64,000 bases of DNA. It comes from Bythopirellula sp. (GTDB lineage: Bacteria > Planctomycetota > Planctomycetia > Pirellulales > Lacipirellulaceae). Position numbers: made by a program. Below are positions 15,001 to 21,000 of this stretch, piece by piece. The stretch covers positions 2,912,001 through 2,976,000 of the forward strand of contig OZ244170.1 of assembly GCA_965216565.1 (NCBI GenBank), written 5' to 3'. Within the stretch, counting starts at the first letter, position 1. Each line of letters starts with the position of its first letter.

Positions 15001-18000
15001 TCCTTCCACTCGCAGATTGCAACGGCCCGAGGTCCGAATCCAATCGCTACCATCGCGAACCGCGGTTAAGGAAACGGGGATCACACTCCGCGAACCCTCG
15101 GGCACAACCCTCAATGGGTTTGCCTTAGGTGCTGGTGTCCACTGAGCGCGACCCAGGGCAACCGCGCGCACACAAATGGGTTCTGAACGCGTTTCAGCAA
15201 ATCGCGCTAGATGGCTATCGCCCAAATAATTCCAGCACTCGTGATGCCATGCGCCGCTAAGCGCAGCAAATGAACCAAGCAAGAACCAAGCCGAGAGCCG
15301 AGGGGAGTTGCTACGCAACGAGAAATAAGTTGCCAGCACGCAAGACAAAGCTAGCGACCACCAACCGTAAAGCCCCACGCTTCCCAGCACCGAACCCACG
15401 TATCGATCTGCAACGATCCCAGTCATCATCGCCAACGCGACCCAAAGTAGCGGCCGATAAGTCGGCACTTGCAGGCAAGTCGTGGGAGCAGGTTGCATAG
15501 GCCGTTTGCATCCAGTGGGAACTCACATTTTCACTGCGGATGATTCTACCAGGCGGGCTTCGCCAGCGAAATCGGACGACTTGGCTTGAATTCGCGGGCG
15601 GCAAGGGAAACAATACGCCTTCTTCCCCGTCATCCCGCCTGCCATTCAGGAGAGTCACCCTCCATGCGATCCACCACAGTCTATCAGCCCAGCCTGCAAC
15701 TACTTCTGGCAGCCCTGGCGACTTGTTTCACGCTTTCGCAACTCTCGCGTGCCGTGAGCGTTGCCTCCAATCCTTCAGCCACCGCGGATTCGTCGGAAAC
15801 CGCAAAGGAGCCTACCTTGATTCCCCGCAGCGTTCTCTTTGGCAATCCAGAAAAAGCTATGGCACGGATTAGCCCGAATGGTAAATGGCTCAGCTACCTG
15901 GCCCCCGTCGATGGCATTCTCAACGTTTGGGTGGGCCCACTTGATGCCCCAGACCAGGCCAAGCCCGTGACCAAGGATAAGGACCGAAACATCCAGGGCT
16001 ATCGCTGGGCGTACAACGGCGATCAAATTCTTTACAGTCAGGACAAGGAAGGCGACGAAAACTGGCACGTCTACGCCACGAACGTCGAGACGGGTGAAAC
16101 CACTGACCTGACGCCACTTGAAGGCATCCACGCTCGCATACAAGAAACAAGCCAAAAATTTCCCAACGAAATTCTGGTTGGCCTCAACGACCGCGAACCA
16201 CGCTTCCACGACATTTACCATGTGAATCTTGAGACTGGCGAGCGAAAGCTAGTGCAAGAAAATCCTGGCGTAGCAGCCTACGTGACCGACGACGATTTCA
16301 ACGTTCGGTTTGCCTTCAACTTCACACCTGACGGCGGGCAGGTGTTACTCAAACCGAAAGTTGAGGGCGAGACCGGCAAGGATGCCGAGTGGGATGAGTT
16401 CATCAAGGTTGGCCCCGAAGATGCGATGAACACCTCGCCGGCTGGCTTCGACAAGACCGGTCGCATTCTTTACCTGCAAGATAGTCGAGAGCGTGACACT
16501 AGCGGACTGTTCGCACTGAACCTCGACACTGGCGAGCAAACGCTCGTGGCAGAAGATCCCCGTGCCGATATTGGCGGTGCCATTACGCATCCCACCGAAA
16601 AAACGATCGAGGCGGTTAGCTTCACTTACTCCCGCACCGAATGGACCATTCTGGACGAATCCATTCGCGATGATCTCGACTACCTCAACTCCGTGGAAGA
16701 TGGCGAGCTGGTGGTCACTGGCCGCACGCTCGACGATTCGCTGTGGACCGTCGCCTTTGTTCTGGATGATGGCCCGCTGAAGTATTACGTCTACGACCGG
16801 AAAAATCGCCAAGCAAAATTCCTGTTCAGTAGCCGCGATGACTTGGACGACTACCAACTCGTGAAGATGCGTACGCCTGTGATTGACTCGCGGGATGGTC
16901 TCAATCTCGTGAGCTATTTGTCGCTGCCCCTCGACAGCGATGCCGATGGTGACGGGCGTCCCGACAAACCGCTACCCATGGTTCTCGATGTGCATGGCGG
17001 ACCGTGGGCTCGCGACGGTTGGGGATACAACTCCACGCACCAGTGGCTCGCCAATCGAGGCTATGCCGTGTTGAGCGTCAATTACCGTGGTTCGACCGGC
17101 TTTGGCAAGAATTTTGTCAATGCCGCCAATGCCGAGTGGTCTCGCAAGATGCACGACGATTTGATCGATGCCGTCAATTGGGCCGTGGAAGAAGGCATTG
17201 CTGACAAAGACAAGGTTGCCATCATGGGTGGTAGCTACGGCGGCTATGCCACGCTCGTCGGGCTGACGTTCACTCCTGATGTGTTTGCCTGCGGTGTCGA
17301 CATAGTTGGCCCTTCGAGTCTGGTGACGTTGATGGAGAACATTCCACCCTATTGGTATTCGTTCTTGCCCGTCATGAAAATTCGTGTTGGCGATGCCAGC
17401 ACCGAAGAAGGCCGTGCGGAACTTCTTAAGCGTTCCCCACTTTCATTGGTTGATAAGATCAAAAAGCCGCTCCTCATCGGCCAAGGTGCCAACGACCCGC
17501 GCGTGACGCAGCTCGAGGCGGACCAAATCGTCGAGGCGATGACCGCTAACAACATCCCCGTGACTTACGTGCTGTATCCCGACGAAGGGCATGGTTTTTC
17601 AGGCGAGCACAATCGCATGTCGTTTAATGCGGTGACCGAGGCTTTCCTGGCCGAGAACCTCGGCGGTCGTTTCCAGCCGGTGGGTAACGACTTTGAAGAG
17701 TCGAGCCTGTACATCCCCACCGGGGCGGACGACGTACCCGGCGTGGCAGACGCCCTTCCTGAGGGACGAGCGGAAATGCCACCCGTGGAAGAAGAGGCTG
17801 ACGAGAACGAAGCGGCCGCCGCGTCGCCTGAGTGAATGTGGTAGCAAGTCTTTTTTGGAATTATGCTTGTCAATCTCCACAATCGAGCCGACAATGGAGG
17901 TGTAATGCACGCGAATACTTTTAACTTCTGGTTTACGACCGCTCGCTACTTCTATTTTGGCAGTAGCGGGGCTGGAGGTTTTGCGTAGGCGTTACTACAA

Positions 18001-21000
18001 ATCCTACAAAGCAAAGACCCCGAGCACCGCAATTGTGGTTCTCGGGGTTTTTTTGTTGGTGCATTGAGAACGAAAATAATGCGTTTCCACGTCCCCCTCC
18101 CCCGTTTTCGGGGGAGGAGTTAGGAGAGGGGGCTGTCAGTGTTGAGATAGCAGCCTTAGACAAACTTCGCCAATTAGGCATACAAACTAATCTACAGGAG
18201 TAAACAAAATGATCATCGTCATGAAGCAAAACGCACCGACCGATGAGATCGACCACGTCGTCTCGAGCGTCAAGGAACTAGGGCTGAAACCAGTTATCAT
18301 CGAGGGCACCGAACGGACCGTCGTGGCAGTGGTGGGCGAAGAACGGGACGCCGGCATCATGGCCCTGGAAAGTAGCCCGGGCGTGGACGAAATCCTTCCG
18401 ATTGTCGCCCCCTACAAACTCGCGAGTAAAGAAGTCCGCCCCGAGCCCAGTACGGTCAAAGCGGGCAGCCTCACCGTGGGCAACGGCAAGATCGGTGTGA
18501 TTGCCGGGCCGTGCTCGGTAGAGAGCGAAGATCAACTGATGGAAACAGCTCACGCCGTCAAGAAAGCTGGTGCCACAGCACTCCGCGGCGGTGCGTTCAA
18601 GCCACGCACCAGCCCCTATAGTTTCCAAGGTTTAAAGGAAGAAGGTTTGAAACTACTGGCCGAGGCTCGCAATCAAACCGGACTGGCCGTAGTGACCGAA
18701 GTGGTGTCGCCCGACGATGTTGACTTGGTTTGCGAATATGCAGACGTCTTGCAAATTGGCGCACGCAATATGCAGAACTACCGCTTGCTGGAAGCGGTGG
18801 GCCGTTGCCCGAAGCCGGCACTTCTGAAACGTGGCCCCAGTGCCACCGTCGACGAGTGGCTGTTGGCAGCCGAGTACATCCTCGACGGAGGCAATCACAA
18901 CGTGATGCTCTGCGAGCGCGGCATTCGCACCTACGAGGCGCACACCCGGTTCACCTTGCCGCTGGCCTCGGTGCCCTACGTGCAACAAAAGACGCACCTA
19001 CCCATCGTCATCGACCCCAGCCACGGCACAGGCCACACCTACATGGTACCTGCGCTTTCACGGGCAGCGATTGCCGCTGGGTGCGACGGCCTCATCGTCG
19101 AAGTCCACCGCAATCCCGACAAAGCGATGAGCGACGGCTATCAATCGATGACGCACGATCAGTTCGAAGAGATGATGACCGGTTGCCAGAAGGTAGCGGC
19201 GGCGATGGATTGCGAGTTGGGATAGCGGTGGGGAGTGATCGATAGTTGTTTGATAACCACAAAAAGCACAAGGAGGCACGAAAGAGTGTATGCAATGAAT
19301 CTCTTTTTGTGACTCTTTGTGTTCTTCGTGGCTATTGTTAGCAGGATTGGCTGAAGTTGGGTGGCAGCTACACTTGTCCGCAGTGGACGTCGCCACTTAG
19401 AAACTATATTCGGACACGTGTCGGTGTCGCTTGCGACAGGAGGCTCGCCCGGTTTGGCTCCGGTGCTTTGCACACGGCTAGTCGACCCAAAGTAATTACT
19501 CGCTTGGCTGCCTGATCGCCATCCGACTGTTCGGGCTACATGCGGGCATTCTCATAAACCAGCATTTTTCTCCATCGTTGTGTTAAGGGGAACATTAATG
19601 GGTCGAATCACTGAAGTATTCATAATCGAAGAACTATGCCTGTTACATGGAATGTGCGTGCCCGAGTGTCCGGAAGTCTTCCGGATTCGGGACGGCGATT
19701 CATTTGCCTCTATTACCCCGAACGCCGAAAAGTACTTTGAGACCCTGGACGGAGACATTCGTTCAGCTATGGAGTGCTGCCCTATGTCATGCATCCAGGT
19801 TGTCGAAGTCGATGACTCAAGTCCTTAGCGGCGGCCCATCGATTTCTCTCGTTCGAGCGCAACCCACACGATGGGCCTAACGTCACCATCCTACCTCTGA
19901 ATCAGCAATCGCCCTATATAGATCTCACCGATCGAGCTTTTGCTTCACCAACCACTGAAGAATCGCCCGCTGTACATAAGCGGGTTGGCGGGCGATGATG
20001 GTGCCGCTATGCGAATCAAACAAGAGCGTGGCTTGATCGTTGCTGGCGCCTGTCACTGTCGCGAGGTGGTTTGCCAGTGCTTTGACCACCTGCTGACCAT
20101 CGGCAGCAGAGTTTGCATTCAGCGGGTAAAGTTCCAACTGGTAATCACGCGCAAACTGCTCGGCGGTGGAGATCTCAATCGTGCCTCCAAAGGAGACTCG
20201 CCAGTCGAGACCCAACGGTTCGAGCACTTCGTCGAGCGCCTGTTGCCAATTGCGATCACTCACCGCACACACGATGGTGGCCTCGGGCCACAGATCGAGC
20301 TCCGCCAGCGCGACCCAATCGACCAGGATGGGCACATCGAGTTCACGCTGCCAGTGTTGCACGACTTCCGCAAGCGGAGTTTCATTGGAAAACGTGAATA
20401 GCGCCGGTCCTGTCAGCCGAGCCGCCATCGCCGCGTGCAGGGGCGTCGGTGCTAGCCGCTCCACCGGGAAGCGGCTGCGTGTGAGTCGCCCATTGACCAG
20501 CCGTAGTCGTTCGAGGAACACCAACAATTCGTAATGAACTGGTTGCGATTGAGTGACGACCAACGAGTTCCCATCGAGTTCCACAGTGGCGACACCCCAA
20601 CTCTCGGGAGCGACGAGTTGTTTGACAAGGTAAATCAACGTCTCGCCGTCTTCTGCGGAATCGACCAAATCGTCGAGAGGGTATTCGATCTCCCGCGTCT
20701 GCTCTGAGTTCTTACGCGTAACTACCACGTGCGGGCCACGATATTGATGCTCAAGTTTCAAGCTTGCCAACACTTCGGCGAGCGCGGCATCGAGCGTTAC
20801 GTCGGTTGCATCAATCGAAACCCGCTGTCGTCCGGAAATGCCGGCCATCAGCAAATGCTCGGCGTCGACACTTACCGGCACGCCGGCTAGCTGCGAAGCG
20901 AGCTGCAAGAATTCAACCAGTGGCATCTCGCGGACCTGAATCCCTGGCAGCTTACGGGCGAACTGCTCGCGGGCGATTCGCGTTGCAGCCCCGTCGTCCG

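What a model noticed while it worked through the whole genome (the two positions that open the first line are those of the whole stretch)
17905..18209. Phe/Trp/Tyr leader-peptide attenuator in front of DAHP synthase
An uncalled 27-codon leader ORF (MHANTFNFWFTTARYFYFGSSGAGGFA) followed by a GC hairpin and U run precedes the class I DAHP synthase gene g02390. It is a classical ribosome-stalling attenuator that senses all three aromatic amino acids at the entry of the shikimate pathway and is conserved across Pirellulales.
Evidence so far: Leader and terminator seen in the sequence. In 30 orthologous loci from 30 Pirellulales families, 21 have an upstream short ORF with >=6 F/W/Y in 14 codons, most ending in a shared F-(T/S)-P-P-G-x-G-A-G-G motif and followed by a terminator-like GG(G)TTTT; 0 of 43 control upstream regions (dnaK, g00854) reach 6.
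(Added by a program. Inside this text positions count along the whole contig: contig position 2,912,001 is position 1 of the stretch shown here. "Call 12" and the like, gene names such as g00115 and contig names such as C1 are that model's own, and its searches are not shown. The text may have been shortened before it was handed on; [...] marks where a part breaks off. The agent that wrote the report below was given it as the finding of a first reader that could run no searches.)

Follow-up and report, generated by a model that had tools for sequence, protein, structure and literature searches.

The report
Aromatic leader-peptide attenuator in planctomycetes
A tiny gene packed with phenylalanine, tryptophan and tyrosine codons, joined to a switchable transcription stop signal, most likely turns up the first enzyme of aromatic amino-acid synthesis when these run short; it is a textbook kind of switch, here widespread in a bacterial group where I found no report of it.

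Summary
The feature is real. A 27-codon leader (17905-17988; 6 Phe, 1 Trp, 2 Tyr), an intrinsic terminator (18013-18054) and a competing antiterminator (17966-18030) precede a class I-beta DAHP synthase. The leader is the densest in aromatic codons of 21,869 intergenic short ORFs in the genome. Leader plus terminator occur before 80 of 95 orthologues (23 of 27 families) and 0 of 11 paralogues. Added here: the antiterminator covaries; a modelled ribosome switches it off just after the last aromatic codon; the leader appears leaderless (promoter 4-9 nt before its start in 83 of 116, against 1 of 116 for aroF). The 'F-T/S-P-P-G-x-G-A-G-G motif' is exact in only 7 of 118 and reflects the RNA helix, not a peptide. 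Sensing of all three amino acids is inferred, not shown; the known C. glutamicum aroR-aroF leader (Phe-Tyr-Phe) answers Phe but not Tyr. No expression data. The mechanism and the regulated gene have published precedent; I found no planctomycete report. This scan noted similar devices earlier on other DNA (cyanobacteria, spirochetes, archaea). Verdict: new member of a known kind.

The parts
17867..17895 (+). Predicted housekeeping promoter: -35 TTGTCA (17867-17872), 17-nt spacer, -10 GACAAT (17890-17895); start site expected near 17901-17903, 2-4 nt before the leader AUG
   Evidence: conserved CTTG / CANAAT-type boxes at the same place in relatives. Not mapped experimentally
17905..17988 (+). 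Leader ORF, 27 aa; control codons F6, F8, W9, F10, Y15, F16, Y17, F18 (plus F26); leaderless or nearly so
17942..17971 (+). Local 1:2-type hairpin inside the leader (this genome); compatible with the antiterminator here and not supported by covariation in the family
   Evidence: family test
17966..18030 (+). Antiterminator: 3' part of the leader pairs with the spacer and the 5' arm of the terminator (-27.5 kcal/mol, z -3.36)
   Evidence: covariation in relatives; controls
17974..17978 (+). GGAGG 12 nt before the leader stop codon; Shine-Dalgarno-like, conserved in position; part of the antiterminator here, second role possible
18013..18054 (+). Intrinsic terminator: GC stem-loop (-26.9 kcal/mol) and U7
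18091..18134 (+). REP-like dispersed hairpin repeat inserted between terminator and gene; not part of the attenuator
   Evidence: 14 other blastn matches in the genome
18196..18200 (+). Shine-Dalgarno site (AGGAG) of the DAHP synthase gene
   Evidence: SD-like core before 104 of 118 homologous genes
18209..19225 (+). Class I-beta DAHP synthase (aroF type, 338 aa) with N-terminal ferredoxin-like regulatory domain; the regulated gene

Best explanation
A classical ribosome-dependent transcription attenuator of the DAHP synthase gene. RNA polymerase starts at or within a few bases of the leader AUG (inferred from conserved promoter spacing), so a ribosome loads on a leaderless message. With charged Phe-, Trp- and Tyr-tRNA plentiful, the ribosome runs through the aromatic codons into the G-rich tail of the leader, covers the antiterminator strand, the terminator forms and transcription stops near 18054. 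When one of these tRNAs is short, the ribosome waits in the aromatic run; the G-rich tail is free, pairs with the 5' arm of the terminator before the 3' arm is made, and transcription continues into the gene. Shown by sequence and computation: ORF, terminator, mutually exclusive antiterminator with covariation, switch point just after the last aromatic codon, codon-level selection. Inferred: start site, translation, kinetics, and which amino acids actually drive it; Phe is the strongest candidate (mean 3.9 codons per leader), Trp (1.5) and Tyr (1.7) are likely but weaker inputs.
For: Leader plus terminator in 80 of 95 orthologue loci, 84 with the covariance model, 0 of 11 scored paralogue loci. 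In 63 leaders of the commonest spacing, the four codons before the last aromatic one are TTY 109, TTR 0, TAY 62, TGG 55, TGY 1, TCN 2 of 252: selection on codons, not on U-richness. Antiterminator helix in 71 aligned sequences: 81.5% of cells paired, 34 double-sided changes against 10.4 in shuffles, 0 of 500 shuffles as high; terminator 88.7%, 63 against 18.3. Own tail:arm duplex -19.3 kcal/mol against -14.1 after synonymous recoding (better than the recoded mean in 106 of 118) and -16.1 for foreign partners. Modelled ribosome (89 leaders): arm pairing 0.79-0.81 with the A site 8 to 1 codons before the last aromatic codon, 0.70 on it, 0.21 three codons later, 0.00 at the stop; this window 0.74 through F18, 0.12 at G22. 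Promoter 4-9 nt before the leader start in 83 of 116 against 1 of 116 before aroF; SD-like core 9 of 118 against 104 of 118. The same element precedes a class I-alpha DAHP synthase and a chorismate mutase/dehydratase/DAHP synthase fusion in other Planctomycetota. The genome has Leu-rich and Ile-rich leaders with terminators before leuA and citramalate synthase and no TrpR match.
Against: No transcript, ribosome or starvation data. Once the 3' arm exists the terminator state is about 12 kcal/mol more stable than the antiterminator state; only 2 of 89 are within 3 kcal/mol, so the switch must be kinetic, which I did not simulate. The 1:2 protector helix is no better than shuffles, and the model gives the antiterminator for any ribosome position upstream of the tail and with no ribosome (0.70), so codon specificity rests on codon counts alone. 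For this window alone, the tail:inner-arm duplex is not beyond controls (p 0.39 recoded, 0.175 shuffled), although the whole antiterminator hairpin is. The +1 slid control of the antiterminator also shows 30 double-sided changes, at 50% pairing. Own arm ranks in the top 10% for its tail in only 34 of 118. 11 of 95 orthologue loci lack the element. Relatives are not independent. In C. glutamicum aroR the Tyr codon had no effect.
Confidence: 0.88

Rival explanations
1. Same attenuator, but effectively a Phe sensor (or Phe plus Trp); the other aromatic codons are too few to stall the ribosome long enough.
For: Phe codons dominate: 111 of 118 leaders have 3 or more, whereas 66 have a single Trp and 41 a single Tyr; 13 lack Trp or Tyr altogether. 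Precedent: aroR of C. glutamicum answers Phe, not Tyr (PMC11802643 passage). The enzyme's N-terminal domain may already give Tyr feedback, as in the Thermotoga type I-beta enzyme (PMC5493349 passage).
Against: Trp holds a fixed position in 44 of 63 leaders and Tyr in 34 of 63, with almost no near-cognate substitutes; such conservation across 23 families is hard to explain if they were silent. In the model each position gives the antiterminator.
Confidence: 0.3
2. The terminator belongs to the upstream gene or to an independent small RNA or small protein; the aromatic ORF does not control aroF.
For: In this window the upstream S9 peptidase gene is on the same strand and ends 70 nt before the leader. 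Attenuator RNAs and peptides can have roles in trans (PMC6614838, PMC7298713, abstracts and passages).
Against: The upstream neighbour varies: opposite strand in 23 of 65 loci, a peptidase homologue in only 7 of 65. The element stays with DAHP synthase genes of two classes. A promoter-like pattern sits before aroF itself in 1 of 116. The antiterminator covaries.
Confidence: 0.04
3. A nascent-peptide arrest device (TnaC type): the conserved tail peptide stalls the ribosome with a free aromatic amino acid or another ligand.
For: Leader length (median 25 aa) and the 11-codon tail (63 of 118) are conserved.
Against: The tail is fixed at nucleotide level: Gly as GGG in 58 of 58, Ala as GCC in 47 of 49, Arg as CGC in 35 of 39, and the peptide changes freely where the helix covaries. 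The exact peptide motif is in 7 of 118.
Confidence: 0.05
4. A protein- or tRNA-binding terminator switch (TRAP or T-box type) with an incidental ORF.
For: A terminator/antiterminator pair is common to these systems (established knowledge).
Against: No Rfam family at its gathering score in the window region or in 10 related loci; in-frame codon selection and AUG at the predicted start site need translation to make sense.
Confidence: 0.03

Closest known systems
Corynebacterium glutamicum aroR-aroF attenuator (Mentz 2013, PMC4046766, passages read; Neshat 2014, not held, known from PMC11802643 passage)
   Same: Leader peptide with Phe-Tyr-Phe before a DAHP synthase gene; ribosome stalling raises transcription.
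   Different: Here the core is F-W-F-Y-F with a conserved Trp; different phylum; class I-beta enzyme. aroR answers Phe, not Tyr. Sequence homology to aroR was not tested.
uORFC-13-1 motif of Acholeplasma (Brewer 2021, PMC8632094, passages read)
   Same: Predicted uORF and intrinsic terminator exclusively upstream of aroF.
   Different: That motif has an RBS and at least one Phe codon; this one is apparently leaderless, carries three aromatic residues and has a covarying antiterminator.
E. coli trpL and pheL attenuators (established knowledge; PMC11802643 passage)
   Same: Leader ORF, control codons, antiterminator pre-empting an intrinsic terminator.
   Different: Those control single branch operons with one amino acid; this controls the entry step. 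No Rfam Trp or Phe leader match. No supported 1:2 protector helix.
Leaderless attenuators of Streptomyces lividans (PMC8079986, passages) and Sinorhizobium meliloti trpL (PMC6614838, passages)
   Same: Leader ORF translated from the first base of the transcript.
   Different: Other amino acids and genes; in S. meliloti stem-loop 1 is thought to favour termination without translation, whereas the model here predicts read-through.

Membership tests
Classical leader-peptide transcription attenuator | Short leader ORF enriched in codons of the pathway's end products | tested here: met
Classical leader-peptide transcription attenuator | Intrinsic terminator between leader and structural gene | tested here: met
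   median 26 nt after the stop
Classical leader-peptide transcription attenuator | Antiterminator that shares a strand with the terminator and overlaps the leader's 3' part | tested here: met
   (computational)
Classical leader-peptide transcription attenuator | Ribosome at control codons leaves the antiterminator free; ribosome beyond them blocks it | tested here: met
   equilibrium folding with a ribosome mask; kinetics not simulated
Classical leader-peptide transcription attenuator | 1:2 protector or pause hairpin (present in trpL type; not in every member) | tested here: inconclusive
   78% paired but no better than shuffles; a different local hairpin exists in this window
Classical leader-peptide transcription attenuator | Promoter upstream of the leader, none between terminator and gene | tested here: met
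   pattern match 83 of 116 against 1 of 116 at the same distance before aroF; prediction only
Classical leader-peptide transcription attenuator | Leader is translated and read-through rises on starvation for the cognate amino acid | not testable with these tools
   needs experiments
Rfam leader families (Trp, Phe, Leu leaders) and T-box | Score at or above the family's gathering threshold | tested here: not met
   best relevant match Leu_leader 17.6 bits against 50; 0 matches in 10 related loci
aroR-aroF of Corynebacterium | Phe-Tyr-Phe leader before a DAHP synthase gene | tested here: met
   consensus core F-W-F-Y-F; window has F-Y-F at 16-18
aroR-aroF of Corynebacterium | Sequence homology of the leader RNA | not tested
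   aroR sequence not fetched
Nascent-peptide arrest leaders (TnaC type) | Conservation at residue level with free synonymous codons | tested here: not met
   tail codons fixed at nucleotide level

The most novel reading that the evidence does not exclude
A true three-input aromatic sensor (Phe, Trp and Tyr read by one F-W-F-Y-F run) that serves as the main transcriptional control of the pathway in planctomycetes, translated from a leaderless message, and using a Shine-Dalgarno-like GGAGG placed 12 or 9 nt before the leader's stop codon (61 of 118 leaders, against 12 such positions in 3,722 gene proxies of this genome) to hold the terminating ribosome through 16S rRNA pairing. The held ribosome would keep the antiterminator strand covered and so replace the 1:2 protector helix, which has no covariation support here. 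Against: GGAGG also pairs with the spacer in the modelled antiterminator (mean 0.60), though that pairing beats shuffles in only 9 of 54.
Probability: 0.15. Interest if true: 0.72.

Novelty: new member of a known kind. Interest (0 to 1): 0.45.

Why it matters
Little is known of how planctomycetes regulate amino-acid synthesis; this gives a concrete, order-wide control element that annotation misses, an RNA family absent from Rfam, and a sign that leaderless initiation works in this phylum. It makes a simple question testable: can one short run of mixed codons report three amino acids at a pathway's entry, or does Phe dominate as in C. glutamicum? More than 100 natural variants with compensatory changes are ready material for that test and for aromatic biosensors. 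The mechanism itself is textbook, so a specialist would be interested rather than surprised.

Tried and rejected
Rfam gave no family at threshold. The generic terminator scan missed the terminator. The second hairpin 18091-18134 was considered as part of the switch and rejected as a dispersed repeat. A conserved 1:2 helix was tested and not supported. The tail as a functional peptide motif was rejected. The 41-codon reading from ATG 17863 was set aside because it overlaps the predicted promoter and relatives place the AUG just after the -10 box. A genome-wide estimate of leaderless genes gave only a weak excess at gaps 6-7 (57 and 50 against about 20-45 elsewhere; crude gene proxies), so I make no claim on how common leaderless genes are. 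No aromatic leader with terminator was seen before the trpE-like, pabB-like, pheA or tyrA genes or the class II DAHP synthase of this genome (by scan and by eye). UUU bias in leaders (333 against 126 UUC; aroF genes 138 against 596) is not a rare-codon effect genome-wide here (26,703 against 30,114). Look-alike stretches among earlier findings: none. Neshat 2014 is not held. Literature searches without a planctomycete report.
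Full report
OBSERVATION. The window holds a 27-codon ORF at 17905-17988 (+) with 6 Phe, 1 Trp and 2 Tyr, a hairpin at 18013-18052 followed by U7 (-26.9 kcal/mol, z -6.99) and, from 18209, a 338-aa DAHP synthase (NF006421 above cut-off; PF00793 with the N-terminal ferredoxin-like domain PF18152; full-length match to PDB chain 1rzm_A; that this chain is the Thermotoga maritima enzyme is recalled). 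The genome has one other PF00793 match, 33% identical and KDO8P-synthase-like by my reading, and a class II DAHP synthase. Among 21,869 intergenic short ORFs of the genome (gene proxies from long ORFs), 65 reach 6 aromatic codons in 14, four reach 7, and only this one reaches 8; of the 65 only this one is followed by a strong terminator (-23.9; four others had loose hairpins of -12.7 to -16.2).

DISTRIBUTION. 144 of 151 genomes drawn from the order have the enzyme. I fetched the best-match locus for 97 of the 143 other genomes, taken mostly from the top of the score ranking, so the sample leans to closer relatives; 95 had 200 nt or more upstream. A fixed rule (short ORF with at least 5 F/W/Y in 14 codons, terminator 8-60 nt after its stop) was met in 80 of 95, in 70 at a threshold of 6, covering 23 of 27 families; a covariance model rescued four more (84 of 95, 25 families). 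Eleven loci lack it, among them all 3 of family f14 and 3 of 4 of f4. A second, about 50% identical paralogue had it in 0 of 11 scored loci and 0 of 12 by the model. In an independent scan that kept the best 80 of over 600 matches, the rule was met in 39 of 60 scored loci among the first 61, nearly all titled as Planctomycetota, and in 3 of 17 among the rest: an unnamed bacterium, a Thermodesulfovibrio and an Anaerolineae record. A phylum-wide model search rang in 16 of 141 genomes, this one included; of the 16 other hits six precede the same enzyme class, one a chorismate mutase/prephenate dehydratase/DAHP synthase fusion, two a class I-alpha DAHP synthase (one confirmed, the other by its near-identical start), two have Leu/Tyr-rich ORFs with no gene identified, and five are terminator look-alikes. 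The element thus follows the function across enzyme classes. Upstream neighbours vary (39 same strand, 23 opposite, 3 none, of 65), which rules against a plain terminator of the upstream gene.

ANATOMY. After removing five duplicates, 118 leaders remain. 105 carry all three aromatic residues, 8 Phe+Trp, 5 Phe+Tyr; aromatic codons make up 26.6% of leader codons against 4.1% in their aroF genes (leaders were chosen for aromatic density, so this figure is partly by construction). In the 63 leaders with 11 codons between the last aromatic codon and the stop, the consensus core is F-W-F-Y-F, and the four codons before the last are TTY 109, TTR 0, TAY 62, TGG 55, TGY 1, TCN 2 of 252: third positions follow the amino acid, which points to translation. 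The tail behaves the other way: its codons are fixed at nucleotide level because the consensus GGUCGCGGGGC copies the terminator's 3' arm and pairs with its 5' arm GCCCCGAGACC.

ANTITERMINATOR. I aligned 71 of the 83 leaders with 10-12-codon tails (window included; 12 divergent or long ones left out). The tail:arm helix has 81.5% of cells paired and 34 double-sided changes (shuffles 10.4; 0 of 500), though the +1 slid control has 30 such changes at 50% pairing. The terminator has 88.7% and 63. The 1:2 helix is not beyond shuffles. Over all 118, the own duplex averages -19.3 kcal/mol against -14.1 for synonymous recoding (p at most 0.05 in 74), -13.0 for shuffles (83) and -16.1 for foreign partners; after double centring the own pair is favoured in 110. 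With a ribosome mask to 12 nt past the A-site start, the arm stays paired to the tail while the A site is in or before the aromatic run and is released within three codons after it. In this window the antiterminator is a longer hairpin, 17966-18030, in a shifted register (-27.5 kcal/mol, z -3.36); arm pairing is 0.74 for every aromatic codon up to F18 and 0.12 by G22, for masks of 9, 12 or 15 nt at the aromatic codons. The inner-arm duplex alone is not significant for this one sequence. Limits: these are equilibrium folds; with the 3' arm present the terminator wins by about 12 kcal/mol, so the antiterminator must act by forming first; and it also forms with no ribosome, which predicts read-through by default.

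LEADERLESS START. A TTG-N3, 16-18 nt, NANNNT pattern ends 4-9 nt before the leader start in 83 of 116 (43 at 6 nt, 33 at 7, 7 at 9) and before aroF in 1 of 116; an SD-like core precedes 9 of 118 leaders and 104 of 118 aroF genes. The AUG therefore sits at the expected transcription start. In this window the gap is 9 nt, so 2-4 bases may precede it. This is inference from spacing; no start site is mapped.

AN ODD DETAIL. GGAGG starts 12 or 9 nt before the leader stop in 61 of 118, this window included, against 5 and 7 of 3,722 gene proxies. It pairs with the spacer in the modelled antiterminator (mean 0.60; above 0.5 in 35 of 54) but beats shuffled spacers in only 9 of 54. It may be an inner antiterminator helix, or may hold the terminating ribosome through the anti-SD (a CCUCC tail is present in the genome). 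Untested.

CONTEXT. No TrpR match in this 94% complete genome. Leu-rich and Ile-rich leaders with terminators precede leuA and citramalate synthase, so this kind of control is in use in the organism. The branch genes show no aromatic leader. If the enzyme is inhibited by Tyr through its N-terminal domain, as described for the Thermotoga type I-beta enzyme (PMC5493349, passages), the leader could supply the Trp and Phe inputs at the level of transcription; this is inference.

WHAT IS KNOWN. Leader-peptide attenuation of a DAHP synthase gene is published: C. glutamicum aroR-aroF, Phe-Tyr-Phe, responsive to Phe and not Tyr (PMC4046766 and PMC11802643, passages; the primary paper is not held), and a predicted Acholeplasma uORF motif (PMC8632094, passages); a Shewanella aroF leader is listed as a possible attenuator (PMC2659441, passages). 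Leaderless attenuators are known from Streptomyces and Sinorhizobium (passages). PMC4833913 (passages) mentions Planctomycetes only for short leader-gene distances. Searches found no report of this element in Planctomycetota; subscription papers (notably Lopatovskaya 2010, seen only as a reference) and supplements were not seen and could list it. Rfam has no matching family. Earlier notes of this scan describe similar devices in other lineages (243 findings hold the search words; none names Pirellulales among those returned); they are unchecked and were read after my analysis.

VERDICT. It works like, and by every testable feature is, a classical leader-peptide transcription attenuator (confidence 0.88); that it answers all three amino acids is perhaps 0.55-0.6. 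New member of a known kind, well supported, filling a phylum gap. Interest 0.45.

Noticed in passing
G000:C1:276384-276492 (-), locus L193/L230: Leu-rich 19-codon ORF and terminator before leuA (2-isopropylmalate synthase); a second short ORF starts right at the predicted promoter and overlaps it. Likely a Leu attenuator.
   Followed up: partly
G000:C1:5097549-5097616 (-), locus L194/L231: Ile-rich 26-codon ORF and terminator before citramalate synthase. Likely an Ile attenuator.
   Followed up: partly
window 18091-18134: REP-like hairpin repeat with 14 other matches in the genome, inserted in the aroF leader region.
   Followed up: partly
L071:2348-2463, L074, L076, L082: Aromatic leaders with terminators outside Planctomycetota: before DAHP synthase in an unnamed bacterium (also hit by the model) and a Thermodesulfovibrio record, before an aroH-aroF-aroF-tyrA cluster in an Anaerolineae record, and a weaker one in a Chloroflexota record.
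   Followed up: partly
L217, L218, L211: The same element before a class I-alpha DAHP synthase and before a chorismate mutase/prephenate dehydratase/DAHP synthase fusion in other Planctomycetota.
   Followed up: partly
L208, L213: Model hits with short ORFs rich in alternating Leu and Tyr codons followed by a terminator; downstream gene not identified.
   Followed up: no
L168:1095-1211 (-): Intact antiterminator and terminator but no in-frame aromatic run; decayed leader or assembly error.
   Followed up: no
L181-L191: The second, about 50% identical DAHP synthase paralogue of many Pirellulales has no leader; in some loci it seems to follow a pheA-like gene (my reading of upstream translations).
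   Followed up: partly
G000:C1:1168129-1169433 (+), L229: A class II DAHP synthase without an aromatic leader exists beside the class I-beta enzyme.
   Followed up: partly
window 15586-17835 and 19580-19828: Neighbours are an S9 peptidase and a small ferredoxin; neither seems linked to the element.
   Followed up: partly
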